Below, piece after piece: positions 1,671-43,392 of a DNA stretch of 64,000 nucleotides. Source of the stretch: Escherichia coli (GTDB lineage: Bacteria > Pseudomonadota > Gammaproteobacteria > Enterobacterales > Enterobacteriaceae); NCBI RefSeq assembly GCF_050920415.1, contig NZ_CP169309.1; one strand, written 5' to 3'. The notes beneath the pieces were generated by a model. It was not told where the DNA came from and ran no database searches. It saw only the letters and a program-made list of their open reading frames with translations. The stretch's first letter is position 1; each line of letters begins with the position of its first letter. The translations under genes were made by a program, and so were the position numbers.

Positions 1671-1679
1671 GGAAATTGT

Positions 1680-3221
1680 ATGCGTAAGATAACAACCGCC
1701 GAGACACTGGCGGCGCAAATTCAGGACGGCGCAACCATTGCCATTAGCGGTAATGGCGGCGGCATGGTGGAAGCGGACCATATTCTGGCTGCTATTGAAG
1801 CGCGTTTCCTGCAAACCGGACACCCGCGCGATCTGACATTAATCCACTCGCTGGGCATTGGCGATCGCGACTGCAAAGGCACTAACCGCTTCGCTCATGC
1901 AGATATGCTCAAACGCATCATTGCCGGACATTTTACCTGGTCGCCCAAGATGCAGGATCTGGTGAAAAACAATGCTATTGAAGCCTACTGCTTCCCTGGT
2001 GGCGTAATTCAGGCACTGCTGCGGGAGATCGGTGCCGGACGTCCAGGGCTTTTTACCCACGTTGGACTGGGATCGTTTGTTGATCCGCGCAACGGCGGCG
2101 GTAAGTCGAACGCCAGCACCACTGAGGATCTGGTAGAACTGATTGAAATCGACGGTGAAACCAAACTTCGTTATCGCCCTTTCAAAGTGGATTACGCGAT
2201 TTTGCGTGGCACTTATGCTGATCCGCGTGGCAACGTCAGCCTCGAAGAAGAGGCGATTGATATGGATAGCTATTCCATGGCGCTGGCAGCACACAACAGC
2301 GGCGGCAAAGTGTTCGTACAGGTGCGCGATGTGCTGGAAGCTGGTGCCATTGAACCACGCCGGGTCAAATTACCGGGCATTCTGGTTGATGGCATCGTTG
2401 AACACCGCGAACAACCACAAACCTATCTTGGCGGTTACGATCTGACCATTAGCGGTCAGCATCGCCGTCTAAGTTCTAACGACGCAATTGAACTGGTTAG
2501 TCATCCGGTGCGCCGCCTGATTGCCCGTCGGGCAGCACGCGAACTGGTAGCTGGCGCTTCAACCAACTTTGGCTTTGGCATTCCCGGCGGCATTCCTGGG
2601 GTTGCACTGCGCGAAGGCGTGCCTTATCAAAGTTTATGGCTGAGCGTCGAGCAAGGCGTGCATAACGGTATGATGCTGGATGATGCTCTGTTCGGCTGCG
2701 CCCGTAACGCCGATGCCATTATTCCATCACTCGATCAATTCGAATTCTACAGTGGCGGAGGGATCGATATCACCTTCCTCGGCATGGGAGAGATGGATCA
2801 GCATGGTAACGTCAACGTCTCCCATCTCAATGGCAATCTCATTGGCCCCGGCGGATTTCTCGAAATTGCGCAAAACGCCCGTAAAGTGGTGTTCTGTGGC
2901 ACGTTCGACGCCAAAGGTAGCAAGATTGATGTAACACCAGATGGCTTGCATATCGCCCAGTCAGGTCAAATCCCTAAACTGGTTACCCAGGTGGAAAAAA
3001 TCACTTTTAGCGCCGCCTACGCACAGCAAAGCGGTCAGGAAGTGTTGTATATCACTGAACGTGCAGTATTCCAGTTAACGGCAGAAGGCGTTGAATTAAT
3101 TGAAATCGCGCCGGGTGTGGAGATTGAACGCGACATTCTGCCGCATATGGCTTTCCGTCCAATTATCAATCAGCCACGCCTGATGGAAAGTAGCCTGTTT
3201 ACGCCGATGGAGGATGCATGA
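1680..3221 (+). CDS. CoA-transferase (family I, acetyl-CoA hydrolase/transferase-like), 513 aa
   Basis: ORF with TAAGGA 6 nt upstream. Size and Gly-rich N-terminal region (ISGNGGGM) resemble YdiF-type acyl-CoA:acetate CoA-transferases. Family call from memory, not searched. Confidence 0.6.
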   Translation: MRKITTAETLAAQIQDGATIAISGNGGGMVEADHILAAIEARFLQTGHPRDLTLIHSLGIGDRDCKGTNRFAHADMLKRIIAGHFTWSPKMQDLVKNNAIEAYCFPGGVIQALLREIGAGRPGLFTHVGLGSFVDPRNGGGKSNASTTEDLVELIEIDGETKLRYRPFKVDYAILRGTYADPRGNVSLEEEAIDMDSYSMALAAHNSGGKVFVQVRDVLEAGAIEPRRVKLPGILVDGIVEHREQPQTYLGGYDLTISGQHRRLSSNDAIELVSHPVRRLIARRAARELVAGASTNFGFGIPGGIPGVALREGVPYQSLWLSVEQGVHNGMMLDDALFGCARNADAIIPSLDQFEFYSGGGIDITFLGMGEMDQHGNVNVSHLNGNLIGPGGFLEIAQNARKVVFCGTFDAKGSKIDVTPDGLHIAQSGQIPKLVTQVEKITFSAAYAQQSGQEVLYITERAVFQLTAEGVELIEIAPGVEIERDILPHMAFRPIINQPRLMESSLFTPMEDA

Positions 3222-5299: not shown

Positions 5300-5319
5300 T
5301 ATTGCAAAGGTTAATCACT

Positions 5320-5796
5320 ATGCGAAATATAATCAGATCTATTAATTCATTGCTTTCCACATTGAACATTACCATTTTGGCAATTATTGTGATGTGCGTT
5401 ACATGGCAAGTAGTAGCACGATTTATCTTTAAAAGCCCCAGCATTTTTACAGATGAACTTAGTCGTTTACTATTTATTTGTCTTGGACTTTTTGGTGGTG
5501 CTTATACTGCCGGACAAAACCGACATCTGGCCATTGATCTTCTGCCAATGATGCTAAAAGGAAAATCCCGACGTTATTTATTCTTATGTATTCAGGCCAT
5601 TGTTATTCTTTTTGCCTCTATCATTATGGTTTATGGTGGCGGGTTATTAACACTGGACACATTTGATTCAGGGCAAACTTCTCCGGCTTTAGGCTGGCAG
5701 ATGGGATATATTTACATGAGCATTCCAATAAGTGGCATCCTTATTATTATATACACCATAGATACAGTTTTAACCGAACTTAAACAACCACTCTAA
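5320..5796 (+). CDS. TRAP transporter small permease (DctQ-like), about 158 aa
   Basis: Small hydrophobic multi-TM protein immediately upstream of DctM-like and DctP-like genes. ATG at 5320 with AAAGG 9 nt upstream is preferred over the TTG at 5302. AT-rich coding sequence. Confidence 0.6.
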   Translation: MRNIIRSINSLLSTLNITILAIIVMCVTWQVVARFIFKSPSIFTDELSRLLFICLGLFGGAYTAGQNRHLAIDLLPMMLKGKSRRYLFLCIQAIVILFASIIMVYGGGLLTLDTFDSGQTSPALGWQMGYIYMSIPISGILIIIYTIDTVLTELKQPL

Positions 5797-5818
5797 AATA
5801 AGTAGGGATGGAGAAAAC

Positions 5819-7120
5819 ATGGATTACTGGTTACCGATCATTGTGTTATTTGGTGCTTTCTTTTTTATGTTGGCATTAGGTGTTCCTATTGTCTATGCTA
5901 TTGGTTTATCAACACTGGCATCAATTACTACACAACTCGATTTCAACTCAGCGTTAAGTGTGGTTTCCCAAAAGTTAGCCTCCGGGTTAGATAGTTTTAC
6001 GTTGTTGGCAATCCCATTTTTTATTTTGTCTGGCAACATTATGAATCACGGAGGAATAGCGCGACGATTAATCAACTTTGCCCGAATTCTCGGCGGTCGT
6101 CTGCCAGGCTCACTTGCCCACTGTAATATTCTTGCCAATATGCTGTTCGGGGCAATTTCTGGTTCAGCCGTGGCTTCGGCGGCTGCGATGGGCGGCGTCA
6201 TGCATCCGCAACAGGTTAAAGAGGGCTACGACCCGGCATTCAGTACTGCAGTTAACGTTGCCTCTGCCCCGACGGGTTTGCTTATTCCACCCAGTAATAC
6301 GTTAATCGTCTATTCACTGGTCAGTGGTGGTACTTCTATTGCCGCACTGTTCCTGGCAGGATATGTCCCGGGAATTTTATTGGGCCTGGCGCTGATGACT
6401 GTGGCTGGTATTATCGCGGTACGCCGGGGTTATCCAAAACCAGAACGTCCGACTTTGCGCCAGGCTGGAGTGGCAATATGGATGGCGATCCCCAGTATTT
6501 TCCTGATTGTATTAATTATGGGTGGTGTACTAAGCGGTATTTTTACCCCGACAGAAGCATCTGCAATTGCGGTAATTTATACCCTTTTCCTTGCACTGGT
6601 TCTTTATCGTGAAATATCAGTTAAAGATTTACCTAAGATATTTCTGGAGTCCGTCATTACCACTGCAATTGTCTTGTTGTTAATTGGTTCTTCAATGGGA
6701 ATGTCATGGGCAATGTCAAACGCTGACGTTCCCTTCCTGATTCTCGATTTGCTTAACACTATTTCTGACAATCCAATAATCATCCTGCTTATTATCAATA
6801 TTATCCTGTTGATTATCGGCACATTTATGGATATGACACCGGCAGTACTGATTTTTACGCCGATATTTTTACCCGTTGTCACCGAACTGGGTATGGACCC
6901 GATTCACTTTGGTATTGTCATGGTACTGAACATGTGTATCGGTATTTGTACTCCGCCTGTAGGCAGTGTGTTATTTGTCGGTTGTAGTGTATCTAAATTA
7001 CCGATTAATAAAATTATCAAACCTATGCTGCCATTCTATGCCGTGATGGTATTGGTGCTGGCAATGGTTACCTATATTCCGCAAATCAGTATGGCATTGC
7101 CAAGAGCACTGGGCTACTGA
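5819..7120 (+). CDS. TRAP transporter large permease (DctM-like), 433 aa
   Basis: 433-aa polytopic membrane protein with the size and hydrophobicity pattern of DctM-family permeases. GGATGGAG RBS; positioned between Q-like and P-like genes. Confidence 0.7.
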   Translation: MDYWLPIIVLFGAFFFMLALGVPIVYAIGLSTLASITTQLDFNSALSVVSQKLASGLDSFTLLAIPFFILSGNIMNHGGIARRLINFARILGGRLPGSLAHCNILANMLFGAISGSAVASAAAMGGVMHPQQVKEGYDPAFSTAVNVASAPTGLLIPPSNTLIVYSLVSGGTSIAALFLAGYVPGILLGLALMTVAGIIAVRRGYPKPERPTLRQAGVAIWMAIPSIFLIVLIMGGVLSGIFTPTEASAIAVIYTLFLALVLYREISVKDLPKIFLESVITTAIVLLLIGSSMGMSWAMSNADVPFLILDLLNTISDNPIIILLIINIILLIIGTFMDMTPAVLIFTPIFLPVVTELGMDPIHFGIVMVLNMCIGICTPPVGSVLFVGCSVSKLPINKIIKPMLPFYAVMVLVLAMVTYIPQISMALPRALGY

Positions 7121-7172
7121 TATGCATTAACTGGCGGCACCTGCCGCCATATTTATTAGAAAAGGAACATCT

Positions 7173-8144
7173 ATGAAAATAAAAGTATCCGCTGGCATTA
7201 TCGGTGCTGTTCTTATGCTATCCGCAAGCCAGTCCTGGGCAGTAACATTAAAACTTAGCCATAATCAGGATAAATCTCATCCTGTTCATAAAGCGATGGA
7301 GTTCTTTGCGAAAAAGAGCAAAGAGTACTCTAACGGTGATATTACTATTCGTATTTATCCAAATGGAACATTGGGTACTCAACGAGAAACAATGGAGCTG
7401 ATTCGTTCTGGTGCTATTCCGCTGGTAAAAACCAATGCGGCGGAGATGGAAGCCTTCGAGAGTTCGTATAAAATATTTAGCCTGCCTTATTTGTTCCGCG
7501 ATCGTGATCATTATTATCAGGTCATGCAAGGCGATATCGGAAGGAAAATCCTCGACTCAACGAAAAGCAAAGGTTATTTCGGGCTGACTTTCTATGATGG
7601 AGGCGCCCGCAGTTTCTACGGTAATAAACCGGTACTGAAACCAGACGATCTGAAAGGCATGAAAGTCCGTGTCCAGCCAAGTCCTGGCGCAGTTGAAATG
7701 ATCAAAGTCATGGGCGGTAACCCGACGCCACTGGATTACGGCGAGCTGTATACGGCCTTACAGCAGGGCGTGGTCGATATGGCAGAAAACAGCGTGATGG
7801 CACTGACCACTATGCGTCACGGTGAAGTGGCAAAATCCTTTAGCCTTGATGAGCACACCATGGTGCCCGATGTGGTTCTGATGAGTAATGCTGCATTTGA
7901 TAAACTCAGCCCTGAAAATCAGGCAGTTATATTAAAAGCAGCGAAAGAATCGATGAGTTACATGAAGGAGTTATGGAGCGAGCAAGAGAAACAAGAATTT
8001 GCAAAACTGGATAAAATGGGCGTAAAAGTCTACCCGGTTGATAAAGCACCGTTTATCGAGAAAGTACAACCGATGTACGCAAACTTCGCTAAAGATAACC
8101 CTGCCCTTGCCCCAATGCTGGCTGATATTCAGGCGGCTAAGTAA
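7173..8144 (+). CDS. TRAP transporter periplasmic substrate-binding protein (DctP-like), 323 aa
   Basis: N-terminal signal peptide (MKIKVSAGIIGAVLMLSASQSWA), size typical of DctP-family binding proteins, AAAGGA RBS. Last gene of the operon, convergent with rplI. Confidence 0.7.
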   Translation: MKIKVSAGIIGAVLMLSASQSWAVTLKLSHNQDKSHPVHKAMEFFAKKSKEYSNGDITIRIYPNGTLGTQRETMELIRSGAIPLVKTNAAEMEAFESSYKIFSLPYLFRDRDHYYQVMQGDIGRKILDSTKSKGYFGLTFYDGGARSFYGNKPVLKPDDLKGMKVRVQPSPGAVEMIKVMGGNPTPLDYGELYTALQQGVVDMAENSVMALTTMRHGEVAKSFSLDEHTMVPDVVLMSNAAFDKLSPENQAVILKAAKESMSYMKELWSEQEKQEFAKLDKMGVKVYPVDKAPFIEKVQPMYANFAKDNPALAPMLADIQAAK

Positions 8145-9299: not shown

Positions 9300-9713
<414 letters not shown>

Positions 9714-10022
9714 TTATTCAGCCTCCTGTCTGGGTCAGCCGAATCCCGGGGAGGCAAGGAACGTGTTAAAGGTCGGCTGAAAAATGACGCGTTATAGTAC
9801 TGACATACCCCGTTAAACTCAAGGCCAGCCGACAAATAAATCTCATCTTTCACCAAATCGTACTAACACGCTGATTTGAAGTTCATCACACTTCATCATG
9901 GTGTTTTTTTGAACAACTGCATCAGAAATGGTCACCATCAACTTCTTTATCATTGATTAAAATTAAATCAGAAGATCACCACAAGAGGAGAGCACACAAA
10001 GTCAGCCGTCGAGGAGGTATCT

Positions 10023-16265: not shown

Positions 16266-16297
16266 CCGGATGGCGTGGAGAAGTTCGCGCTATCCGG
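16266..16297. repeat. REP-like hairpin between ulaG and ulaR
   Basis: Imperfect inverted repeat CCGGATGGCG ... CGCTATCCGG resembling a REP palindromic unit. Confidence 0.35.
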
Positions 16298-17861: not shown

Positions 17862-18042
17862 CTGTCTCTCCTTTTTGTCTGGTATGACATGAAGAAATCC
17901 TTAGCACAAGTTTCTGCTGGCGGTATTAGTTCATAATGTTGAGATGTGGGTTACGCTTTCATCACGTTTTCATTCGAAAATCGCGTACCAGGTAACAATT
18001 CGGGAACATTCCCCCAAAGTTAAATTAATAAGGCACTACACT

Positions 18043-18372
18043 ATGGTTAGCAGGAAACGTAATAGCGTTATTTACCGGTTTGCCAGTTTATTATTGGTGT
18101 TGATGTTAAGTGCCTGTAGCGCACTGCAAGGTACGCCACAGCCAGCACCGCCAGTAACGGACCATCCGCAAGAGATTCGCCGCGACCAGACGCAAGGGTT
18201 ACAGCGAATAGGTAGCGTAAGCACGATGGTTCGGGGTTCTCCGGATGACGCATTAGCAGAAATCAGAGCGAAAGCTGTCGCTGCAAAAGCTGATTATTAC
18301 GTTGTCGTCATGGTGGACGAAACCATCGTGACAGGACAGTGGTATTCACAAGCCATTTTGTACCGTAAATAA
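18043..18372 (+). CDS. bsmA: biofilm stress and motility lipoprotein BsmA (YjfO), DUF1471 family
   Basis: 109-aa product MVSRKRNSVIYRFASLLLVLMLSACSALQG... with a lipobox (LSAC); start at the ATG at 18043 rather than the ORF-track 17944. Confidence 0.9.
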   Translation: MVSRKRNSVIYRFASLLLVLMLSACSALQGTPQPAPPVTDHPQEIRRDQTQGLQRIGSVSTMVRGSPDDALAEIRAKAVAAKADYYVVVMVDETIVTGQWYSQAILYRK

Positions 18373-18520
18373 ATCAGACAACTTACATAGTCAGCTTTAC
18401 ATTGCTTTGCGTCCCTATGCGTTTACCTGTGCACAATAAATTACCAGCTGGAAGCTCGGGCGTTTATTACCGCGATGGAATGCCCTGCAACATGTGGGGA
18501 AACGAAAAATGGAGCTGACG

Positions 18521-18796
18521 ATGAAACAATTACTTGCCTCACCCTCGCTGCAATTAGTGACTTATCCTGCGAGCACCACGGCACAGTCTGCAGAATTCGC
18601 CAGTGCTGACTGCGTAACGGGCCTGAATGAAATAGGTCAGATCTCGGTTAGCAATATTTCAGGGGATCCGCAGGACGTGGAACGTATCGTGGCGTTAAAG
18701 GCCGATGAACAAGGTGCATCATGGTACCGCATTATTACCATGTACGAAGACCAGCAGCCTGATAACTGGCGCGTACAGGCGATCCTGTATGCGTGA
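18521..18796 (+). CDS. yjfN: DUF1471-family protein YjfN
   Basis: 91-aa product MKQLLASPSLQLVTYPASTTAQSAEFASADCVTG... with GGAG 6 nt upstream of the ATG at 18521. Confidence 0.9.
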   Translation: MKQLLASPSLQLVTYPASTTAQSAEFASADCVTGLNEIGQISVSNISGDPQDVERIVALKADEQGASWYRIITMYEDQQPDNWRVQAILYA

Positions 18797-18821
18797 GTGT
18801 CATCTACAGCAAATGAACAAT

Positions 18822-18852
18822 GCCGGATGCGGCACCTGTGCCTTATCCGGCC
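18822..18852. repeat. REP element
   Basis: GCCGGATGCGGCACCTGTGCCTTATCCGGCC matches the canonical E. coli REP palindromic unit; lies between yjfN and aidB. Confidence 0.75.
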
Positions 18853-18945
18853 AACAGTTCCTGAAATTTCATTGTGTTAGTTGATAACACGTAATGCTGC
18901 TGTTGCCATTATAAGACGCGCTAGCATCACATCTGGCTGACTCGT

Positions 18946-20571
18946 TTATAAACATACTCCCCCCGTCGCCCGCAGCAATAAATCATTCTGGATCTGCTCT
19001 GACAACCGCACGCCGCCGCGCGTATCAAACATCATCTGACACCACGCCTGCGCCATTGGCGGAGAGGCATATTTCAACATTTGCGCGCCGCAACCCAGCA
19101 GGAATAGCTGACGAGTAATCTCTCGCCCCATTTCTTCAGCTGGCTTACGCAGTTGCTGCTGCAAACGACGAACCGCGCGATCAAAATAGCGATCCTGTCC
19201 TTTCACTTCCACAAATGCTTCTGTCAGCAAATCGTATACCCCAGCCTGCTTATTGAGAACGCGCAGCACATCGAGGCACATAATATTGCCAGAACCTTCC
19301 CAGATGCTGTTCACTGGCATTTCCCGATAAAGTCGCGGTAGTTCGCTCTCTTCGCAATAGCCAATACCGCCCAGCACCTCCATCGCTTCAGCCACAAACG
19401 GAATGCCACGTTTGCAGATAACAAATTTCGCCGCAGGCGTAAATAAGCGCGCCCACAGGGCTTCTTTGGCATCGGCACGCCGATCCCACGCTCGCGCAAG
19501 ACGAAACAGCAACGCTGTTTGCCCTTCAAGTTGGAGCGCCATGCGGCTTAAGACATGACGCATCAAAGGCTGTTGGATCAATGGATTACCAAAAACATGG
19601 CGTTGATGGGCATGATAAATCGCCAGCGAAAATGCACGGCGCATCATGGCATGGCTACCCAGGGCGCAATCAAAACGCGTCATCCCACCCATTTTCAGGA
19701 TCAGACGAACTCCTTCCCCTTCCTGCCCCAACAACCAGCCAATGGCATCCTGAAACTCCACTTCGCAGCTGGCGTTAGAGCGATTACCCAGCTTATCTTT
19801 CAGCCGCTCGAGGCGAATCGCGTTGCGTTGCCCGTCAGGCAAAAAGCGCGGCACAAAAAAGCAGGACAAACCGCCCGTAGTCTGCGCCAGCACCAGATGC
19901 GCATCGCTTTGCGGCACCGAGAAAAACCATTTATGCCCCACCAGCCGATAAGAGCCATCGTCCAGACGCTCTGCGCGGGTAGTGTTGCTCATCACATCGG
20001 AACCGCCCTGCTTTTCCGTCATGCCCATGCCAATCAACAAACCGCGTTTTTGCCCACCTGGCAATAAGTGGGAATCGTAGCGATCGCTCAACAGCGGCGT
20101 GGTCCAGTCCTGAAACGGCGCGGGTAACATCTGTAACAGCAATGGCGTGGCGGCAAAGGTCATGGTTATCGGACATAACGACCCTGCCTCAACCTGTGCG
20201 TGCAACATAAAACGCGCCGCGCGCGCCACAAATGCGCCGGAGCGAGCGTCTTCTTCCCAGGCAAGATTGTGCACCCGATTGGTACATAGCGCCTGCATCA
20301 GCAAGTGCCAGGCGGGGTGAAAACGCACATCGTCCAGACGGCGTCCTTGCGCATCGTAGCGCAATAATTCAGGCGGATTCACATTCGCCAGCCGCCCCAG
20401 TTCAAGAGATTCAGCCGTTCCTAACTGCTGACCAATACTGGCGAGAAAATCGCTATCCCAGCCAGCACCTTCACGCGTTACCGCTTCGCAGAGCGCGCCA
20501 TCAGACAGGTATAAGTTGCTGTTATTTAATGGTATAGGTTGATTAAAAACGGTGTGAGTTTGCCAGTGCAC
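18946..20571 (-). CDS. aidB: adaptive-response protein AidB (acyl-CoA dehydrogenase family)
   Basis: 541-aa product starting (GTG) MHWQTHTVFNQPIPLNNSNLYLSDGAL...; GTG at 20571 with GGAGGGAG RBS 7 nt upstream; the ORF-track TTG/ATG extension is rejected. Confidence 0.93.
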   Translation of the reverse strand: MHWQTHTVFNQPIPLNNSNLYLSDGALCEAVTREGAGWDSDFLASIGQQLGTAESLELGRLANVNPPELLRYDAQGRRLDDVRFHPAWHLLMQALCTNRVHNLAWEEDARSGAFVARAARFMLHAQVEAGSLCPITMTFAATPLLLQMLPAPFQDWTTPLLSDRYDSHLLPGGQKRGLLIGMGMTEKQGGSDVMSNTTRAERLDDGSYRLVGHKWFFSVPQSDAHLVLAQTTGGLSCFFVPRFLPDGQRNAIRLERLKDKLGNRSNASCEVEFQDAIGWLLGQEGEGVRLILKMGGMTRFDCALGSHAMMRRAFSLAIYHAHQRHVFGNPLIQQPLMRHVLSRMALQLEGQTALLFRLARAWDRRADAKEALWARLFTPAAKFVICKRGIPFVAEAMEVLGGIGYCEESELPRLYREMPVNSIWEGSGNIMCLDVLRVLNKQAGVYDLLTEAFVEVKGQDRYFDRAVRRLQQQLRKPAEEMGREITRQLFLLGCGAQMLKYASPPMAQAWCQMMFDTRGGVRLSEQIQNDLLLRATGGVCL

Positions 20572-20588
20572 TGTGTCTCCCTCCATCA

Positions 20589-20620
20589 ATGGCAGTCACC
20601 CTTAGTATGGTCACTGCCAT
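20589..20620 (-). promoter_or_regulatory. 12-bp near-perfect inverted repeat in the aidB upstream region
   Basis: ATGGCAGTCACC (20589-20600) and GGTCACTGCCAT (20609-20620) form an 11/12 inverted repeat with an 8-bp spacer, about 20-50 nt upstream of the aidB start. Candidate operator or 5'-UTR hairpin. Confidence 0.4.
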
Positions 20621-20654
20621 GGATTCCTGACAGAAAGAGATTGCTAAAACATTC

Positions 20655-21818
20655 TTACCCAGCAATGTAATGCGGAACGAAACGTGAGGTGTCTTTGGTG
20701 ATCAGCGTGTTATCTTCACGGATTCCCATTCCGCACGCTTCATCATCGACAATCCAGCTACCGATGAGTGTGTAGCTATCGCCAAATCGCGGCAGAGGTT
20801 GAAACGCCTGATAGATCATCGGTTCATCGGCGTAATCACCCTCAGCGTGGTCAACGACGTTATTCTGACCGTCGAAAATGGTGACGTTTCCGCCTTCGCG
20901 TGAGTAGATCGGTTTACGCACATAGCTTTCGCCAGCGGCAATCTGCGGTTTTTCGCCATCAAACCAGGATGCAAGTAGGTTAGGATGACCAGGAAAGAAG
21001 CGCCAAAGCAGCGGCATTAACCCTTTGTTGCTCAAGATACTTTTCCATAACGGCTCCACCCATTGCTCGCGGCGCTTGCGCAGCAGAGGACCGTTATCGT
21101 CACGCATCATCCATTCCAGCGGATACAGCTTAAATGCACGCTGGATGACATTATCATCAAGATCGGTCAGTACACCGCCGACGCCCAAACCGAGATCTTC
21201 AATGTAGATAAACCGTGACTCCTGCCCAGCCTGCTGAGCGCAGTCCTGCAAGTACAGCACAGTACTCCTGTCTTCGTCGGTATCCTGACAACAGCAGAAA
21301 TAAAACGGTTCCCGACTGTAAAGCTCGCTAAAACGCGAAATCAGGCGTTCCTGAATGGCATTGTACTGATCGGCATCACGCGGAATAATGCCGCTACGCC
21401 GCGCATCTTCCAGCCACAGCCACTGGAAATAAGCCGATTCATACAACGAGGTTGGCGTATCGGCGTTGTACTCCAGCAGCTTCACCGGCGCATTGCCACA
21501 CCAGGCAAAATCCATCCGACCATACAGCGAAGGATCGCGTGCGCGCCAGCTTTCAGCGATCACATCCCAGTACAGCGGGGGGATCGCCAGTTGCGTCAGG
21601 ATTTCTTCGTCTTGAACCGCACGATCCACCACCTCAAGGCACATCTGATGCAGTTCCGCAGTTGGTTTTTCGATCTGCTCTTCTATCTGACGCAGAGTAA
21701 AGCGGTAAGCCCGACTCTCATCCCAATAGATTTCATTGTCGATGATATGAAAGTCGAAACCGTTGTCGGCGGCGATCTGGTCCAGATCCCGTCGTACAGG
21801 AACGTTGTGTCTCAGCAT
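20655..21818 (-). CDS. yjfC: glutathionylspermidine-synthase-like ATP-grasp protein YjfC
   Basis: 387-aa translation MLRHNVPVRRDLDQIAADNGFDFHIIDNEIYWDESRAYRF...; last gene of the yjfI-yjfC operon. Confidence 0.92.
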   Translation of the reverse strand: MLRHNVPVRRDLDQIAADNGFDFHIIDNEIYWDESRAYRFTLRQIEEQIEKPTAELHQMCLEVVDRAVQDEEILTQLAIPPLYWDVIAESWRARDPSLYGRMDFAWCGNAPVKLLEYNADTPTSLYESAYFQWLWLEDARRSGIIPRDADQYNAIQERLISRFSELYSREPFYFCCCQDTDEDRSTVLYLQDCAQQAGQESRFIYIEDLGLGVGGVLTDLDDNVIQRAFKLYPLEWMMRDDNGPLLRKRREQWVEPLWKSILSNKGLMPLLWRFFPGHPNLLASWFDGEKPQIAAGESYVRKPIYSREGGNVTIFDGQNNVVDHAEGDYADEPMIYQAFQPLPRFGDSYTLIGSWIVDDEACGMGIREDNTLITKDTSRFVPHYIAG

Positions 21819-21820
21819 GA

Positions 21821-22459
21821 TTAGCCTCCCCAGTGCCCACGGGCGCTGGAAGAACGACCATAGCCGCCGCGAGAAACAGTTGACGCTTTTCTGGTGGTAA
21901 AGCCGCCCGAGGAGTAAGACTCTTTTTTGCCAGAACCGGAGCGCCAGGAGTAATCACCGGAAGTATTGCGCCAGACGGGGCGGGAAGCAAATGAGGATCC
22001 ACCGCTGTTATAAACGAACGGCTCATCGCGATCTTTACGAATAACCCGGCTTAATAAAAATCCAGAAATGACCGGGATCCAACTCTGTTCAACATTGTCG
22101 TAGTAGCAATTTTCGTACTTAGACTGACAATTCTGCTGAGTCATATTCTTCGGAACATCGGCATAAAATGCCGCTTTGGCATTGTTCCAGCCATGAGCAC
22201 AGATATCTGAATTATTACCGTCATCAATACAATCCTGCACTGTCGAGTAAAACGTTCCGTCACCGTCGTTATCGACATCACCACTATCGCCACAACCTTT
22301 CAATACAAAAAAAGCTGCACCGCCCATTAGCGCCAACGTTAAGTATTTTTGTGCGTAGCGATTGCGTCGCGGCTCAAAAGGATTATTAGGTCTTCCAATG
22401 CGACTGATCGCTCCGTGACCAATTTTACTGTTATTTCTTGATTTGCGTTTTCTGGCCAT
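21821..22459 (-). CDS. yjfM: DUF1190-family protein YjfM
   Basis: 212-aa ORF, Gly/Ser-rich C-terminal half; 2-nt gap to yjfC. Confidence 0.9.
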   Translation of the reverse strand: MARKRKSRNNSKIGHGAISRIGRPNNPFEPRRNRYAQKYLTLALMGGAAFFVLKGCGDSGDVDNDGDGTFYSTVQDCIDDGNNSDICAHGWNNAKAAFYADVPKNMTQQNCQSKYENCYYDNVEQSWIPVISGFLLSRVIRKDRDEPFVYNSGGSSFASRPVWRNTSGDYSWRSGSGKKESYSSGGFTTRKASTVSRGGYGRSSSARGHWGG

Positions 22460-22468
22460 GATCGTCCA

Positions 22469-22867
22469 TTACCATGTCATACAAGCTGCGTTAAAAATAC
22501 CGCCAGCCAGCGCGGCGGTTCCCATAAACATTCCTGCTGCGGTATTGTGATTAATAATTTTTTCGCTTAATGCTGGCATATAAAGTCTGACGCCAGCAAA
22601 AACGAGTAACTGAATCACCAGTGCGATCCCGCCCCAGGCAAAATAATCCGGAATACTCACCGCATTGATTGCCGCACTAGATAATGGGATCACGTAACCC
22701 AACAATGTACCACTGAACGCCAGTGCCGCCGCGGTATTATTGTTTTTAATTAACTGCCATTCGTTGTGCGGTGTAATTTTGGAGTAGATAAACAGAAAAA
22801 TAATCACCATAGCCACGCCAATAAAAAAATAGGCGCTAAAGGCAAGAAGTGAATCCAGTATATGCAT
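22469..22867 (-). CDS. yjfL: DUF350-family inner-membrane protein YjfL
   Basis: 132-aa hydrophobic ORF MHILDSLLAFSAYFFIGVAMVIIFLFIYSKITPHNEW... Confidence 0.9.
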   Translation of the reverse strand: MHILDSLLAFSAYFFIGVAMVIIFLFIYSKITPHNEWQLIKNNNTAAALAFSGTLLGYVIPLSSAAINAVSIPDYFAWGGIALVIQLLVFAGVRLYMPALSEKIINHNTAAGMFMGTAALAGGIFNAACMTW

Positions 22868-22884
22868 CGTAAACGTCCTTGTAA

Positions 22885-23544
22885 TTAACCAATAATATGA
22901 AGTGATGTCAGTGGGATATCAACACCCAGTGCGCGCGAAAATAACCACTCCGGCTCGCCGAGATCGTTAAAAGATTCCTCACCATTTAACAGCAAATATT
23001 CACAGGTATCTTCGGTCACCTGCCGTTCATAGCCCATGGTAAAATTATGCACTTCCCATTTGGCGTGGTTTTGATTTTCAACTTTTTCCAGCATATAGAC
23101 GGGTTCGATATTCCCCGGTTCTTCGCTGTTAAAAAATCGCTGCCAGCGTTTTTCCTGCCAGTTTAATGTCATTGCCCCCATCGCTTTGGCGTTGATCGCT
23201 TCGCGCCAGTGGCTCTCTTTGCTGATACCGTAGCTCTCTTCATAGACAAAGAGCTTTATATCATCAATGTCATCAATATCTTCGCCGCCGGTGGTATTGA
23301 TTTGCAGAAATTCATCGCCCGAAGTGTAGTAGCGGAAAATCTGACTACCGCCGCCCAGATCGATGTGGCTGACAGCGGCTACCGTAAATTCTTCACCCGG
23401 CAGCGCAATCAGCAATTCATCTTCCAGCAAACGAAACGCTAACGTGTCGAGCGTAAAGCCGCTATTGAGATGAAGTCCCAGCGGGCCACGTGCGGTTACA
23501 GGTTTATCATCCTTACCAAACAGACGCTTGAAAAAACTTGTCAT
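22885..23544 (-). CDS. yjfK: DUF2491-family protein YjfK
   Basis: 219-aa translation MTSFFKRLFGKDDKPVTARGPLGLHLNSGF...; start ATG overlaps the stop of the upstream channel-like gene (ATGA) with GAGGGAAG RBS. Confidence 0.9.
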   Translation of the reverse strand: MTSFFKRLFGKDDKPVTARGPLGLHLNSGFTLDTLAFRLLEDELLIALPGEEFTVAAVSHIDLGGGSQIFRYYTSGDEFLQINTTGGEDIDDIDDIKLFVYEESYGISKESHWREAINAKAMGAMTLNWQEKRWQRFFNSEEPGNIEPVYMLEKVENQNHAKWEVHNFTMGYERQVTEDTCEYLLLNGEESFNDLGEPEWLFSRALGVDIPLTSLHIIG

Positions 23545-24611
23545 ATGCTTCCCTCAATGTCCTGCCATACCACTTCTTCAGCCAAAATACGGTTATTGCC
23601 AATAAGATGCAGCCACATACCGCCTTTAACTTCCGTTGCAATGACTGGATTCAGTTCCATTCCCCTACCATTTTTACAACTGCTTATTCCCAGGACGGTG
23701 GCATCATGATGAAGTTTCATATAATGCATCAATGCGCCATAACGCATCGAGGTAACCCGTTCAGGAATCGGTAAAACAAACCCCGTATCCCCCAGCATTG
23801 GATTCATAATCGATGCCACTGATTGAGATGAACCGGGATCTTGTATTGAACGGGAAAGTTGTTCTGCTGAAATATTTCGCACTATTTCAATACGTTGACA
23901 ATGAACCTCTAATAAACGAGCGTAGCGTTCATCTTCCAGATAAGCGACGATATGGCATCTTTCAGGAATAAAATCCGCCAGGGATAGTGCGGTCGTGAAC
24001 GTCTGCTCATCTGTTTGCGAAAAGATGATGACACTTTGGCAATTTGCCAGTCCCATGCGGGTATGTTCATGCGGATCATTAAAATTACTAATACGAATGA
24101 AATCGACCCAATTATTTCCAGGCATCGGATGTTGAATATCATCCCGCTCACACAAAAGTACCCGGCCAAATGCTCTTCGGGAATCAAACAACAATAATGA
24201 AATCATCTTTTCAGTCTGATGCCCGCGCCATCCAATGACCAGCATATGGTTGCGCAAATTGCTGTAGTCGCCCATTCCCGTCATTCCTTTCGCCAATATG
24301 TCTTGCACTAATGCAATGACTTTTCCCATTAAAGCGCCAAATAAACCAACACTCACAGGAATCTGCCAGAGCGCTGTGAACAGACGTCCCCCAACCGTTT
24401 GGGGTGTGATATCACCAAACCCCAGCGTTGATCCCACAACCGAGCAGTAATAAATAAAATTACTCAGTTGACCTACCAACGCCTCTTCATGCAACGCAGT
24501 TAACACCAGATAACAAAACAGATACTGTCCTGTAAATAATCCAGTCAATGCCGGCCAGGTAAGCCTGGAAAGGTGACGTCGGCAGGTTTTAATGATCCAG
24601 GAGAAGAACAT
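23541..24611 (-). CDS. putative 2-TM potassium-channel-like protein with a C-terminal RCK/TrkA-N-like domain, 356 aa; not in the K-12 gene order as I recall it
   Basis: Uninterrupted 1071-nt ORF between yjfJ and yjfK. Contains TM1 (residues ~21-45), a pore helix and K+-selectivity-filter-like TLGFGD (residues 62-67, nt 24411-24428), TM2 (~74-100), then a Rossmann-like HMLVIGWRGHQ... segment. Start overlaps the yjfJ stop (TAATG) and stop overlaps the yjfK start (ATGA). Appears AT-richer than its neighbours. Confidence 0.75.
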   Translation of the reverse strand: MFFSWIIKTCRRHLSRLTWPALTGLFTGQYLFCYLVLTALHEEALVGQLSNFIYYCSVVGSTLGFGDITPQTVGGRLFTALWQIPVSVGLFGALMGKVIALVQDILAKGMTGMGDYSNLRNHMLVIGWRGHQTEKMISLLLFDSRRAFGRVLLCERDDIQHPMPGNNWVDFIRISNFNDPHEHTRMGLANCQSVIIFSQTDEQTFTTALSLADFIPERCHIVAYLEDERYARLLEVHCQRIEIVRNISAEQLSRSIQDPGSSQSVASIMNPMLGDTGFVLPIPERVTSMRYGALMHYMKLHHDATVLGISSCKNGRGMELNPVIATEVKGGMWLHLIGNNRILAEEVVWQDIEGSI

Positions 24612-25309
24612 TACTCGCCCTGTTGGCGTTGCAGTCTTGCTAATACATCCTGGGCGCTACTTTTGTTGCTACCGCCAATTCCGGCTTCCGCCAGTTTTTC
24701 ATCAAGATCGCGACCATCTGCCACTTTTTCCAGCTGTGCGGCAGCATCCAGGCGAGCTTGACGTTCGGCCTGACGCGTTTGCAGACGCTTTAAGGATTCT
24801 GCCGCTGTCGAAACGCTGGAAGATGCGCCAACAGTAGAGGTCGTTACGGCCTGTTGTGCACGCTGCATGGCTTCAGTAGCTTTAACGACTTCCATTTGTT
24901 GCTCAAATTGAGCGATACGCTGTGCTGTCGCTGTAACCGCTTTTTCCACACCATCGCGAGAGACCTCCAGATTCGACAACACTTGCTCTTCAGCGGTAAT
25001 GAGATTCTCAAGACGGGCGATTTCTTCAGCAACTTCGTTAATCAACGACGGATTAACATTCTTGCTTAACGCTTCCAGCGCGCGAGCTTCCAGACTGGCT
25101 TTACGCTCACGTAAATCTTTCAGTTTATCGTTGCTCAATTTCACTCTTGCCAGTAGATCGACACGTGATTTACCGGCCTTATCCAGTTCTGCTTTGGCAT
25201 CGCGTATATGCTGTTCAAGCATTCTAACGCCCTGTGCTTCTTCAATGGATTCTTCCGCTTGCGAGATCACCGATTTACCCAGCGTAAATAAAGTTTTTAA
25301 AATTCCCAT
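24611..25309 (-). CDS. yjfJ: PspA/IM30-family protein YjfJ
   Basis: 232-aa coiled-coil-rich translation MGILKTLFTLGKSVISQAEESIEEAQGVRMLEQHIRDAKAELD... characteristic of the PspA/Vipp1 family. Confidence 0.93.
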   Translation of the reverse strand: MGILKTLFTLGKSVISQAEESIEEAQGVRMLEQHIRDAKAELDKAGKSRVDLLARVKLSNDKLKDLRERKASLEARALEALSKNVNPSLINEVAEEIARLENLITAEEQVLSNLEVSRDGVEKAVTATAQRIAQFEQQMEVVKATEAMQRAQQAVTTSTVGASSSVSTAAESLKRLQTRQAERQARLDAAAQLEKVADGRDLDEKLAEAGIGGSNKSSAQDVLARLQRQQGE

Positions 25310-25327
25310 AAATACCTGTCCTTGTAA

Positions 25328-25729
25328 TTAGTGTGAATATTCTTCTGTAATTTCAGCAAGATCCAAAGCGTTATCTACCAGCGTGGTTATTTCCAGCAGG
25401 ATATCTTCAAGAGAAGATTTAAGCGATAACGCCCCGAAAACAATGTAATACTCTTCCTCTTGCACGCTGGAGATCCCTACCGATGACAACGGCATCATCT
25501 TCTGATTTCTTAATAAGAAGGTATTAAATTCATCTGGATTGCTGATACTACTTACCGGACAAATAAAGGTTTCGATAATCATTTGGCGGGAAGTAAAAAG
25601 AATATTGATTTGCAAATCGCCATAATCATTCATTTTAATAATTAATGCGTTTTCATTATTTGTTATATCAATATTTTGTTCAGGTACAGTTTGCAGCGCC
25701 GTCGCCAGCGCCAACGGATTCCATGTCAT
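25328..25729 (-). CDS. yjfI: DUF2170-family protein YjfI
   Basis: 133-aa ORF MTWNPLALATALQTVPEQNIDITNNENALIIK...; first gene of the yjfI-yjfC operon, with an AT-rich promoter region upstream (25730-25808). Confidence 0.9.
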   Translation of the reverse strand: MTWNPLALATALQTVPEQNIDITNNENALIIKMNDYGDLQINILFTSRQMIIETFICPVSSISNPDEFNTFLLRNQKMMPLSSVGISSVQEEEYYIVFGALSLKSSLEDILLEITTLVDNALDLAEITEEYSH

Positions 25730-25808
25730 ATATTATTCCATATAAATTAAGTTTAAATATTAATAAAATGAATATTTGTAGTACGTAATTATCTTACCAG
25801 CTATAGAC

Positions 25809-25840
25809 AAAAAAAAACCATCCAAATATGGATGGTTTTT
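25809..25840 (-). terminator. rho-independent terminator downstream of rlmB (bidirectional form)
   Basis: Stem CCATCCA/TGGATGG (25818-25824 and 25829-25835), with a 9-nt A-run on one side (25809-25817) and TTTTT on the other (25836-25840). Confidence 0.8.
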
Positions 25841-25855
25841 CATAATTCAGAGAAA

Positions 25856-26587
25856 TTAGCTACGCTGGCGTACCGCTTCAAATAAGCAAATGCCTGTCGC
25901 CACAGAAACGTTCAGCGAAGAAACACTTCCTGCCATTGGGATGCTGATCAACTCATCGCAATGTTCACGGGTCAGGCGACGCATGCCTTCACCTTCTGCG
26001 CCCATCACCAGTGCCAGCCGTCCGGTCATTTTGCTCTGATAGAGCGTATGATCCGCCTCTCCTGCCGTACCGACGATCCAAATATTCTCTTCCTGCAACA
26101 TACGCATGGTGCGCGCCAGGTTAGTCACCCGAATCAGCGGAACGCTTTCTGCCGCGCCGCAGGCCACTTTTTTCGCCGTGGCGTTGAGCTGTGCGGAGCG
26201 ATCTTTCGGCACAATCACCGCATGAACGCCAGCGGCGTCCGCGCTGCGCAGGCACGCGCCGAGGTTGTGCGGATCGGTCACACCGTCGAGGATCAGCAGG
26301 AACGGTTGATCGAGCGAAGCGATCAGATCCGGCAGATCGTTTTCCTGATACTGACGTCCTGGCTTCACACGGGCGATAATGCCCTGATGCACGGCACCGT
26401 CGCTTTTCTCGTCGAGATATTGGCGGTTTGCCAGCTGGATAACCACGCCCTGGGACTCAAGGGCGTGAATCAGCGGCAACAGACGTTTATCTTCACGGCC
26501 TTTTAAAATAAAGACTTCCTGAAAACGTTCAGGGGCGCGCTCCAGCAGGGCCTGCACTGCGTGGATGCCGTAAATCATTTCACTCAT
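25856..26587 (-). CDS. rlmB: 23S rRNA (guanosine2251-2'-O)-methyltransferase RlmB
   Basis: 243-aa SpoU/TrmH-family translation [44 protein letters not shown]... Confidence 0.95.
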
Positions 26588-26611
26588 TAATGTACTCGTT
26601 GTTTACGTTTT

Positions 26612-26640
26612 GCCTGATGCGCTACGCTTATCAGGCCTAC
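26612..26640. repeat. REP element (first copy of a BIME-like pair)
   Basis: GCCTGATGCGCTACGCTTATCAGGCCTAC, in the rnr-rlmB intergenic region. Confidence 0.7.
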
Positions 26641-26675
26641 ATGATCCCTGCAATGTATTGAATTTGCGTGATTAT

Positions 26676-26710
26676 GTAGGCCGGATAAGGCGTTCACGCC
26701 GCATCCGGCA
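26676..26710. repeat. REP element (second, inverted copy)
   Basis: GTAGGCCGGATAAGGCGTTCACGCCGCATCCGGCA, inverted relative to the first copy. Confidence 0.7.
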
Positions 26711-26767
26711 TGAACAAAGCGCATTTTGTCAGCAATCTGACCCTCTTCTGTTTGAAGGGGGTAATGA

Positions 26768-29209
26768 TCACTCTGCCACTTTTTTCTTCGCCGCACGCTT
26801 CGCTTTAGTTGCAGCGGCTATTTTCTGCGTTTTCGCCGATGGCTTTTTCGCTTTTCTCGCGTCTTTCTTCGCCGCTTTCGGCTTCGGTTTTTTCTCGCCA
26901 CGGAAGGCGCTGTCTGGCTCAAAGTTTACCTTTTTACCGACCTGGCGACGCTTGCCACCTTTTTTACCTGCATCGCCTTTTTTCGCTTTCTCGCGCGCGG
27001 TTTTACCGACGTTGCGCGGTGCGCGTTCGCTGGAGATCAGGCTAAAGTCGATTTTGCGCTCGTCCATATTAACCGCTTCGACGCGCACTTCCACGCGATC
27101 GCCCAGGCGATAAGTCTGGCCGCTGGATTCACCCATCAGGCGTTGTCCTACCTGGTCAAAGCGATAGTAGTCATTGTCCAGAGAAGAGACATGGACCAGA
27201 CCATCGATGAACAAGTCATCCAGGCGAACAAAGAAGCCAAAACCAGTGACGCTGGAAATCACGCCTTTAAAGACGTTACCTACCTGGTCGAGCATGAAGT
27301 CACACTTCAGCCAGTCAGCCACATCGCGCGTTGCTTCGTCGGCACGACGTTCCGCCATCGAACAGTGCTGACCCAGTTGCAGCATTTCTTCCATCGAATA
27401 ATGGTAGCCGCCGGTTTCAGTGGTGTTGCCCTGATGCCCCTGCTCTTTCGCCAGCAGATACTTAATGGCGCGGTGTAGCGTCAGATCAGGATAACGACGA
27501 ATCGGCGAAGTAAAGTGCGCATAGGACTGCAATGCCAGACCGAAGTGACCGCGGTTTTCCGGATCGTAAATCGCTTGTTTCATCGAGCGCAACAGCATGG
27601 TTTGCAGCATTTCTGCGTCAGGACGGTCAGCAACCGATTCCAGCAGTTCCGCGTAGTCACGCGGTTCCGGCTTGTTACCGCCAGGCAATTCCAGCCCCAG
27701 TTCCGCCAGCACTGAACGGAAAGAGGTTATCGCTTCAGTGCTCGGCTTGTCGTGAATACGGAACAGTGCCGGTTCTTTGGCCTTCTCAACGAAACGCGCC
27801 GCCGAGATATTCGCCAGAATCATGCACTCTTCAATTAACTTGTGTGCGTCGTTACGCTGGGTCTGTTCGATACGCTCAATACGGCGTTCAGCGTTGAAAA
27901 TGAACTTCGCTTCTTCGCTCTCAAACGAGATCCCGCCGCGTTCTTCACGGGCTTTATCCAGCACTTTATAGAGGTTATGCAGCTCTTCGAGGTGCTTAAC
28001 CAGCGGGGAGTACTGCTCGCGCAGATCCTGATCGCCCTGCAGAATATGCCAGACTTTGGTGTAGGTCAGACGCGCGTGAGAGCTCATCACCGCTTCATAG
28101 AATTTGTAGCCCGTCAGGCGACCTTTCGACGAAATGGTCATCTCACACACCATACACAGGCGGTCTACCTGCGGGTTGAGCGAGCACAGGCCGTTAGAGA
28201 GCACTTCCGGCAGCATCGGGATAACCTGCGAAGGGAAGTACACCGACGTGCCACGGTTACGCGCTTCCCTGTCCAGCGGCGTTGGCGGACGCACATAGTA
28301 GCTGACGTCGGCAATCGCGACCCATAAACGCCAGCCGCCGCCGCGTTTTTTCTCGCAGTAAACTGCATCGTCAAAGTCACGGGCGTCTTCGCCATCAATG
28401 GTGACCAGCGGTAAATCGCGCAGATCGACACGGCCAGCTTTCGCCTCTTCCGGCACTTCTTCTTTCAGCCCGGCAACCTGTTGCTCAACAGCCTGCGGCC
28501 AGATGTACGGAATTTCATGGGTACGCAGGGCGATATCAACCGCCATGCCGGTGCCCATATTATCGCCCAGCACTTCGACGATTTTACCCACTGCTTTGGT
28601 ACGGCGAGTCGGGCGTTGGGTCAGTTCAACCACCACCACAAAGCCCATCCGCGCGCCCATGATCTGATCGGGCGGGATTAAGATATCGAAGCTCAAACGA
28701 CTGTCGTCAGGAACCACAAAGCCGACACCCGCTTCGGTAAAGTAGCGACCAACAATCTGGCTGGTTTTTGGCACCAGTACGCGGACAATACGCGCTTCAC
28801 GGCGGCCTTTACGGTCAGCGCCCAGCGGCTGCGCCAGCACCTGATCGCCATGAATGCATGTTTTCATCTGCTCGCTGGAGAGATACAAATCATCTTTACG
28901 TCCTTCAACCCGCAGAAAGCCGTAGCCATCACGGTGGCCAATAACGGTACCTTTCACCAGGTCGAGGCGTTCCGGCAGCGCATAGCACTGACGGCGAGTA
29001 AAGACCAGTTGACCATCGCGCTCCATCGCGCGCAGGCGGCGACGCAGGCCTTCAAGCTGCTCTTCGCCTTCAATGTGCAGTTCTACCGCCAGCTCATCAC
29101 GGCTGGCCGGTTTTTCACGTTTGGTTAAATGTTCGAGGATAAATTCCCGACTAGGGATGGGATTCGCGTATTTTTCAGCTTCGCGTTCCTGGAAAGGATC
29201 TTGTGACAT
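26768..29209 (-). CDS. rnr: ribonuclease R
   Basis: 813-aa product starting [23 protein letters not shown]... at the ATG at 29209 (GGAGG RBS), with a Lys-rich basic C-terminal tail. The ORF-track start at 29251 would overlap nsrR and is rejected. Confidence 0.95.

Positions 29210-43205: not shown

Positions 43206-43281
<76 letters not shown>

Positions 43282-43316: not shown

Positions 43317-43392
<76 letters not shown>

What the first reader, a model, noticed from the sequence alone, without database searches (positions are those of the whole stretch)
18822..26710. REP/BIME elements at several intergenic sites
Canonical REP-type palindromes occur between yjfN and aidB (18822-18852) and as an inverted pair between rnr and rlmB (26612-26640 and 26676-26710). 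Weaker REP-like palindromes lie outside this span, between ulaG and ulaR and between rsgA and psd. They are useful strain markers.
Basis: partly seen in the sequence, partly recalled or inferred. Interest (0 to 1): 0.15.

Follow-up and report, generated by a model that had tools for sequence, protein, structure and literature searches.

The report
Ordinary E. coli REP/BIME repeats

Summary
The window is E. coli chromosome. A Y-type REP lies at 18821-18855 between the convergent genes yjfN and aidB. Between rnr and rlmB a Z1 REP (26612-26640) and a Y REP (26676-26710) face each other. Both match the consensus perfectly; shuffled sequence gives none.

Refinements:
- **rnr-rlmB element.** It is a canonical BIME-1 (Y, L linker, Z1). 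Five copies at unrelated loci share the architecture and an invariant L core.
- **yjfN-aidB site.** Citrobacter has an intact Z2+Y pair at the same position, so this is a degraded ancestral BIME. Its Y unit has GTTG instead of GTAG.
- **Strain variation.** The full BIME-1 occurs in 3842 of 5426 complete genomes; the rest carry a single, different palindrome. The long yjfN-aidB allele occurs in only 19-22 genomes.
- **The two "weaker" palindromes** (ulaG-ulaR, rsgA-psd) are real hairpins but single-copy, so they are not shown to be REPs.

The likely function is inferred, not tested. As RNA, the hairpins would protect the upstream message or attenuate transcription inside the rnr-rlmB operon. 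As DNA, the L linker would bind IHF. This is already known biology and of low interest.

The parts
18821..18855 (-). Y-type REP between yjfN and aidB. Read on the - strand it is GTTG-GCCGGATAAGGCACAGGTGCCGCATCCGGCA. The stem starts 25 nt after the yjfN stop codon.
   Evidence: 27/34 to the Y consensus, with outer arms 12/12 and 13/14. Hairpin of -20 kcal/mol. Median 14 related places per genome. The K-12 orthologue is also a REP, with GTAG intact and a compensatory G-C to A-T change in the inner stem.
18856..18901 (.). Locus-specific 46-nt spacer between the Y unit and the decayed Z2 unit. It is not an L linker.
   Evidence: Local alignment to L scores no better than shuffles (p 0.27-0.8). The spacer is partly deleted in the K-12-type allele.
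18902..18938 (-). Decayed Z2-type REP lying 7 nt downstream of the aidB stop codon (18946-18948). Read in the aidB sense it is AGCCAGATGTGATGCTAGCGCGTCTTATAATGGCAAC.
   Evidence: 28/36 to the Z2 consensus, the top hit in the window, against a background maximum of 22 (mean 9.1, sd 2.6). The Z2 consensus itself was verified as 40 or more copies per genome. It aligns position for position with an intact Z2 REP in Citrobacter. Hairpin of -13.1 kcal/mol. Present in only 19 of 5426 genomes.
26612..26640 (-). Z1 REP of the BIME-1. Read on the - strand it is GTAGGCCTGATAAGCGTAGCGCATCAGGC. It ends 24 nt upstream of the rlmB start codon.
   Evidence: 29/29 to the Z1 consensus. Hairpin of -11.5 kcal/mol.
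26641..26675 (-). L linker of the BIME-1. Read in the rnr sense it is ATAATCACGCAAATTCAATACATTGCAGGGATCAT. It contains an IHF-like motif, ATTCAATACATTG, at 26651-26663 (-).
   Evidence: L alone recurs at a median of 7 places per genome, up to 20. The core AAATTCAATAnATTGC is invariant in 5 paralogous copies. The IHF consensus is matched at 12 of 13 positions.
26676..26710 (+). Y REP of the BIME-1. Read on the + strand it is GTAGGCCGGATAAGGCGTTCACGCCGCATCCGGCA. It lies 57 nt downstream of the rnr stop codon.
   Evidence: 34/34 to the Y consensus, none in shuffles. Hairpin of -21.3 kcal/mol.
26711..26724 (.). Flanking motif shared by BIME-1 copies. Read in the rnr sense it is (G)TGCGCTTTGTTCA, immediately 5' of the Y unit.
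   Evidence: Conserved in 5 of 5 paralogous BIME-1 loci.
26740..26762 (-). Neighbouring hairpin that is not a REP, 5 nt after the rnr stop codon (ACCCCCUUCAAACAGAAGAGGGU). It is not part of the BIME.
   Evidence: Folds at -9.7 kcal/mol. Retained in K-12, in the short-allele strains and in E. albertii.

Best explanation
These are ordinary members of the E. coli REP/BIME repeat system.

**Identity (shown).** The rnr-rlmB element is a single-copy BIME-1: a Y REP and a Z1 REP in inverse orientation around the conserved L linker, inside the rnr-rlmB co-transcript. The yjfN-aidB element is the eroded remnant of an ancestral Y+Z2 BIME between two convergent genes.

**Origin (inferred from published work).** Such elements are spread and rearranged by the REP-associated tyrosine transposase, TnpA-REP (RAYT). 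That enzyme needs the GTAG tetranucleotide and the stem mismatch. The rnr-rlmB units keep both. The yjfN-aidB units carry GTTG, so they are probably inert relics.

**Function (inferred, not tested here).** Once transcribed, the GC-rich hairpins would act as barriers to 3'-to-5' exonucleases and as weak attenuators. That would stabilise the upstream rnr, yjfN and aidB message segments and lower expression of rlmB relative to rnr. On DNA, the L linker would be an IHF binding site.
For: **Identity as REPs.**
- Exact or near-exact consensus matches, with none expected by chance.
- The two Y units are the top inverted repeat of the whole window.
- High copy number in 5425 of 5426 genomes.
- Extragenic location.

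**BIME-1 classification.** Five paralogous loci (ybiA-rhlE, rnpB-yhaC, tsx-yajD, lpdA-yacH, mgtA-ridA) show the same Y-L-Z1 order and an invariant L core. L alone recurs at a median of 7 places per genome. This fits the published definition of BIME-1 as z1 plus y, single copy, with a long conserved L linker that frequently carries an IHF site (PMC3333891).

**Ancestral Y+Z2 pair at yjfN-aidB.** Shown by the alignment with E. albertii and two Citrobacter genomes.

**RNA structure.** The rnr-rlmB intergenic RNA folds at -67.7 kcal/mol, z = -6.1. The aidB-sense intergenic RNA has z = -3.3.

**Transcription.** rnr and rlmB lie in one operon in K-12 RNA-seq data (PMC4161252). No sigma-70-like promoter was found in the spacer, and no canonical terminator overlaps the REPs.

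**Published functions.** REP roles in mRNA stabilisation, termination, and IHF, gyrase and Pol I binding are summarised in PMC3333891. REP-containing mRNAs are degraded by RNase R together with PNPase (PMC12320835).
Against:
- The IHF motif matches at only 12 of 13 positions, and such matches are no more frequent in the window than in shuffles (63 against 52 +/- 7).
- About 29% of E. coli genomes do without the BIME-1 at rnr-rlmB, and more than 99% lack the complete Z2 remnant. These particular sequences are therefore dispensable, which fits neutral or selfish DNA as well as it fits a regulatory role.
- The REP units at rnr and yjfN start more than 15 nt from the stop codons, which is outside the range reported for translational down-regulation (PMC12306157, citing Liang et al. 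2015).
Confidence: 0.93

Rival explanations
1. The elements are real REPs or BIMEs but have no function at these loci. They would be neutral or selfish relics of RAYT-mediated spread, tolerated in permissive intergenic gaps.
For: - Both sites are presence/absence polymorphic within E. coli.
- The yjfN-aidB pair is visibly decaying: GTAG has become GTTG, the Z2 unit is 28/36, and its 3' half is deleted in most strains.
- Other genera carry unrelated palindromic repeats, or none, in the rnr-rlmB gap.
Against: - Every allele and nearly every genus examined keeps some stable palindrome between rnr and rlmB.
- The inner-stem difference from K-12 at 18834/18839 is compensatory and preserves the pairing.
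- Published work shows that REP hairpins do affect mRNA decay in general (PMC3333891, PMC12320835).
Confidence: 0.4
2. The palindromes are ordinary Rho-independent terminators or locus-specific regulatory hairpins, not members of a repeat family.
For: - They are GC-rich stem-loops located after stop codons.
- A weak terminator-like pattern overlaps the 18819-18836 arm on the - strand.
- This description does fit the two outlying hairpins (ulaG-ulaR and rsgA-psd), which are single-copy.
Against: - For the four units inside the finding, the matches to repeat consensus sequences are exact or highly significant, and the families occur at tens of sites per genome.
- No T-run follows the REP stems at rnr-rlmB.
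Confidence: 0.02
3. The resemblance is due to chance palindromes in GC-rich sequence.
For: None beyond the short length of the units.
Against: - 0 of 100 shuffles give a match.
- The scores are 7 to 10 standard deviations above the window background.
- Orthologous REPs are present in K-12, E. albertii and Citrobacter.
Confidence: 0.005

Closest known systems
BIME-1 (also called RIP or RIB elements; Y REP, L linker, Z1 REP) of E. coli, as defined by Bachellier/Gilson and summarised in Ton-Hoang et al. 2012 (PMC3333891)
   Same: Composition (Y plus Z1 in inverse orientation), a 35-nt L linker with the conserved core, the shared flanking motif, a single copy at the locus, and GTAG plus the stem mismatch in both units. 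It aligns with paralogous copies at five other loci.
   Different: Nothing in the architecture. Within the Z1 unit this strain matches the consensus exactly, whereas K-12 differs from it at 3 positions. IHF binding was not tested.
BIME-2 and atypical BIMEs (Y plus Z2 REPs with short S linkers, usually tandemly amplified)
   Same: The yjfN-aidB site pairs a Y unit with a Z2 unit, tail to tail. The Citrobacter sp. FP75 orthologue has an intact Z2-type unit, a 7-nt linker and a Y-like unit.
   Different: Here the Z2 unit is decayed (28/36). The spacer is 46 nt and locus-specific. There is only one pair, not a tandem array. Both units have GTTG or CAAC in place of GTAG or CTAC.
REP hairpins as mRNA 3' stabilisers and attenuators (for example malE-malF); substrates of PNPase with RhlB and of RNase R
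   Same: Transcribed intergenic position, either within an operon or after a gene's 3' end; stable GC-rich stem-loops; no T-run.
   Different: No expression data exist for these particular loci. The effect is inferred from established knowledge and from PMC3333891 and PMC12320835.

Membership tests
E. coli REP (Y, Z1, Z2 types) | Imperfect palindrome of 30-40 nt able to form a stem-loop | tested here: met
   The units are 29-37 nt, the arms are 86% complementary, and the free energies run from -11.5 to -21.3 kcal/mol.
E. coli REP (Y, Z1, Z2 types) | Sequence match to a type consensus | tested here: met
   Y 34/34 and 27/34, Z1 29/29, Z2 28/36, against background maxima of 21, 19 and 22. The consensus strings were recalled from memory, then checked. 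The Z2 string occurs at 40 or more places per genome at 100% identity. The Y and Z1 units recur in 5 paralogous loci.
E. coli REP (Y, Z1, Z2 types) | Conserved GTAG tetranucleotide 5' of the stem foot | tested here: met
   Met for both rnr-rlmB units: GTAG at 26676-26679 (+), and CTAC at 26637-26640 (+). Not met for the yjfN-aidB units in this strain: GTTG for the Y unit (CAAC at 18852-18855) and GTTG at 18902-18905 for the Z2 remnant. The K-12 and E. albertii orthologues of the Y unit have GTAG.
E. coli REP (Y, Z1, Z2 types) | Mismatch or bulge in the stem, required for TnpA-REP binding | tested here: met
   Read directly from the sequence and from the fold. AA opposite GC in the Y units and an AA bulge in Z1 (structures). 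The requirement itself is described in PMC3333891.
E. coli REP (Y, Z1, Z2 types) | High copy number, dispersed, extragenic | tested here: met
   14 to 40 or more places per genome in 5425 of 5426 genomes; all four units are intergenic.
E. coli REP, as applied to the ulaG-ulaR (16266-16297) and rsgA-psd (45338-45359) palindromes | Repetition in the genome | tested here: not met
   Median of 1 place per genome, at the same blastn settings that give 14 for the yjfN-aidB REP (against 53). The ulaG-ulaR hairpin has GTAG on the wrong (3') side of the stem. The rsgA-psd hairpin scores 20/34 to Y, within background.
BIME-1 | One Y and one Z1 REP in inverse orientation | tested here: met
BIME-1 | Long, conserved L linker between the two REPs | tested here: met
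   The 35-nt linker recurs at a median of 7 places per genome. Its core is invariant in 5 paralogous copies.
BIME-1 | Single copy at the locus, not tandemly amplified | tested here: met
   There is one Y-L-Z1 unit in the 180-bp spacer.
BIME-1 | IHF binding to L | not testable with these tools
   The motif ATTCAATACATTG matches WATCAANNNNTTR at 12 of 13 positions, but the motif count across the window is not above chance. Binding is a published property of the family (PMC3333891) and was not measured here.
BIME-2 | Y plus Z2 with a short S linker, in tandem copies | tested here: not met
   Y plus decayed Z2 are present, but the spacer is 46 nt, there is a single pair, and no tandem array exists. 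The element is better described as the relic of an ancestral Y+Z2 BIME.

The most novel reading that the evidence does not exclude
The BIME-1 just downstream of rnr could form a feedback loop. RNase R is one of the two exonucleases that clear REP-containing mRNA fragments, and its own message ends in, or is processed at, a double REP structure. RNase R abundance could therefore tune the stability of the rnr 3' region and the rnr:rlmB ratio. The roughly 29% of strains that carry the short allele would then be naturally rewired. Different genera keep different palindromic repeats at this same spot, which is compatible with selection for a hairpin there. It is equally compatible with the site simply being permissive.
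Probability: 0.06. Interest if true: 0.4.

Novelty: already known. Interest (0 to 1): 0.1.

Why it matters
It matters little for biology. REP and BIME elements have been known for about 40 years, and both sites have REPs at the same positions in K-12.

The practical value is in annotation and typing:
- The rnr-rlmB gap is dimorphic in E. coli: BIME-1 in about 71% of complete genomes, a single other palindrome in about 29%.
- The yjfN-aidB allele seen here marks a rare haplotype (19-22 of 5426 genomes). That haplotype also shows the highest similarity to this window across the surrounding 9.5 kb.

The yjfN-aidB site is also a tidy example of how a BIME erodes, through loss of GTAG, deletion of half a unit, and compensatory stem changes.

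Tried and rejected
- **Rfam scan of the whole window.** It found no family covering the REPs, only the RpsF leader, two tRNAs and a guanidine-II riboswitch. REPs do not appear among the Rfam matches, so this is uninformative.
- **K-12 RefSeq annotation.**
- **Fuzzy regex search with indels.** It timed out and was replaced by Hamming scans.
- **RepRanger paper supplements.** They hold no REP coordinate table.
- **Two literature searches.** They found no open-access paper on a REP at rnr-rlmB or on the Liang/Deutscher gene list.
- **Is the 46-nt yjfN-aidB spacer a decayed L linker?** Rejected (p 0.27-0.8).
- **IHF motif as independent evidence.** Rejected as uninformative.
- **REPs as intrinsic terminators or promoters.** No convincing signal.
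- **The short-allele palindrome at rnr-rlmB as a high-copy REP type.** Only 1-2 places per genome.
Full report
**What the window is.** The stretch 18000-27500 is 100% identical to E. coli strain MFDS1022581 and 98.3-98.6% identical to the next-best genomes listed. It matches 5425 of 5426 complete E. coli genomes. The window is not that exact strain, because single-base differences and a difference at the tRNA-Gly cluster exist. Gene positions come from that record: yjfN 18521-18796 (+), aidB 18946-20571 (-), rlmB 25856-26587 (-), rnr 26768-29209 (-).

**Checking the observation.**
- A search with the Y-type REP consensus finds 26676-26709 (-) with no mismatch, and no match in 100 shuffles.
- An ungapped scan of both strands of the whole window with three consensus strings gives Y 34/34 at 26676-26709 and 27/34 at 18822-18855. 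It gives Z1 29/29 at 26612-26640. Background maxima are 21 and 19.
- Without any prior consensus, the longest inverted repeat in the entire 64 kb is the pair 18820-18856 / 26675-26711 (I1).
- Each unit folds into a stable hairpin.

**A fourth unit that was missed.** The same scan gives a Z2-type match of 28/36 at 18902-18937 (-). This is the best Z2 score in the window (background maximum 22, mean 9.1, sd 2.6), and it lies 7 nt after the aidB stop codon. I had recalled the Z2 consensus from memory, so I checked it. It occurs at 100% identity in 5404 records and at 40 or more places per genome, the counting cap.

Orthologous spacers settle the question. Citrobacter werkmanii and Citrobacter sp. 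FP75 both have an intact Z2-type REP at the same position after aidB; in FP75 a short linker and a Y-like REP follow it. E. albertii keeps the 3' half of the Z2 unit. K-12 and the E. coli reference genome in the species collection have lost the 3' half of Z2 and part of the spacer (a gap of about 34-36 bp).

The yjfN-aidB site is therefore a decayed ancestral Y+Z2 BIME, and this window holds the most complete version seen in Escherichia. The 46-nt spacer is not related to the BIME-1 L linker.

The Y unit here differs from K-12 in two ways. Its inner stem carries a compensatory G-C to A-T change. Its tag reads GTTG instead of GTAG.

**The rnr-rlmB element is a BIME-1.** The published definition is z1 plus y, single copy, separated by a long, well-conserved L linker that frequently carries an IHF site, with GTAG 5' of each stem foot and a stem mismatch (PMC3333891).
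- The 35-nt linker alone, without REP arms, recurs at a median of 7 and up to 20 places per genome.
- I fetched five paralogous copies, from genomes where the best linker match was not at rnr-rlmB: ybiA-rhlE, rnpB-yhaC, tsx-yajD, lpdA-yacH and mgtA-ridA.
- The alignment shows the same Y-L-Z1 order, an invariant core AAATTCAATAnATTGC, and a shared flanking motif 5' of the Y unit.
- The IHF consensus is matched at 12 of 13 positions at 26651-26663 (-). Such matches are no more frequent in the window than in shuffles, so the IHF claim rests on family membership and the literature.

**Family size.**
- The divergent Y unit at yjfN-aidB finds a median of 14 related places per genome.
- Both are stable hairpins (-24.7 and -18.5 kcal/mol) and are conserved in K-12.
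- The ulaG-ulaR hairpin has GTAG on the wrong side of the stem. The rsgA-psd hairpin scores within background against Y.

I therefore do not file these two as REPs.

**Variation between strains.**
- At rnr-rlmB, 3842 of 5426 genomes have the full element. The others have a spacer 90 bp shorter. In it, the Y unit, L and Z1 are replaced by one palindrome, GTAGGCCGGGCAAGCGTGGCGCTCCCGGC. That palindrome is exact or nearly exact in about 1580 genomes and otherwise occurs only 1-2 times per genome.
- E. albertii has the BIME-1 at this site. Citrobacter has a single GCCGGGC-type palindrome. Several other genera have one or two CCCTCTCC...GGAGAGGG palindromes.
- At yjfN-aidB, only 22 genomes cover at least 80% of the window's allele. 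Only 19 hold the 95 bp specific to it. These are largely the same strains that give the best matches over the whole 9.5 kb.

The 'strain marker' remark is therefore correct.

**How it most likely works.**
- *Shown:* identity, architecture, copy number, the predicted folds, and location inside a transcribed spacer. rnr and rlmB are in one operon in K-12 RNA-seq data (PMC4161252). No promoter-like site, and no T-run terminator on the REPs, was found. The whole rnr-rlmB spacer RNA folds at -67.7 kcal/mol with z = -6.1.
- *Inferred from published work on the family:* the hairpins impede 3'-to-5' exonucleases and partly attenuate transcription. This would favour the upstream gene segment (rnr over rlmB; the 3' ends of yjfN and aidB). 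L binds IHF. TnpA-REP, which needs GTAG and the stem mismatch, is the agent that spread and rearranges these units (PMC3333891). The GTTG units at yjfN-aidB are probably no longer substrates.
- *Translation:* down-regulation has been reported only for REPs within 15 nt of a stop codon (PMC12306157). The yjfN REP starts after a 25-nt gap and the rnr REP after 57 nt, so that effect is not expected there. Only the weak Z2 remnant, 7 nt from the aidB stop, is in range.

**Main rival.** The alternative reading is that these copies do nothing at these loci. The polymorphism and the visible decay support that view. The persistence of some hairpin at rnr-rlmB in nearly every lineage, and the compensatory stem change, argue mildly against it.

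**A speculative point.** RNase R, together with PNPase, degrades REP-containing mRNAs (PMC12320835), and its own gene is followed by a BIME-1. A feedback loop is conceivable but entirely untested.

**Verdict.** This is a correct, well-located observation of already known elements. The refinements are the BIME-1 classification, the decayed Y+Z2 relic, the allele frequencies, and the two outliers not being REPs. Interest is low.

Noticed in passing
window 23541-24611 (- strand): A 1071-bp 'potassium channel family protein' gene lies between yjfJ and yjfK. K-12 MG1655 has only a 50-bp gap there. It is a strain-variable gene inside the otherwise conserved yjfI-yjfC cluster.
   Followed up: no
window 43206-43281 and 43317-43392 (- strand): There are two identical tRNA-Gly(GCC) genes 111 bp apart. 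K-12 has three (glyV, glyX, glyY). In the closest record, MFDS1022581, the second annotated tRNA-Gly lies 122 bp further along than in the window (43439-43514). The tRNA array varies in copy number between close strains.
   Followed up: partly
window 1-8144: A cluster next to rplI encodes a sugar-phosphate isomerase, an enoyl-CoA hydratase, an acyl-CoA transferase, an FAD oxidoreductase and a TRAP transporter. K-12 has yjfZ-ytfA-ytfB at that position. It is probably an accessory metabolic island.
   Followed up: no
L016, L018-L021, L024, L029 (rnr-rlmB spacers of other Enterobacteriaceae): Each genus carries its own kind of palindromic repeat in the rnr-rlmB gap. Citrobacter has GCCGGGC...GCCCGGC. 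Enterobacter, Pluralibacter, Pseudocitrobacter and others have CCCTCTCC...GGAGAGGG, sometimes in two copies. The site seems to attract or retain hairpin repeats.
   Followed up: partly
window 16266-16297 and 45338-45359: Two stable single-copy hairpins with REP-like half-sites. One lies 13 nt after the ulaG stop codon, the other inside the rsgA-psd spacer. The rsgA-psd hairpin is at least 99% identical in 4498 genomes. They could be locus-specific mRNA stabilisers or very old REP relics.
   Followed up: partly
window 58634-58680 (-) and 9693-9777 (-): Rfam finds a guanidine-II (mini-ykkC) riboswitch and the RpsF leader. Both are expected E. coli features and are unrelated to the finding.
   Followed up: no
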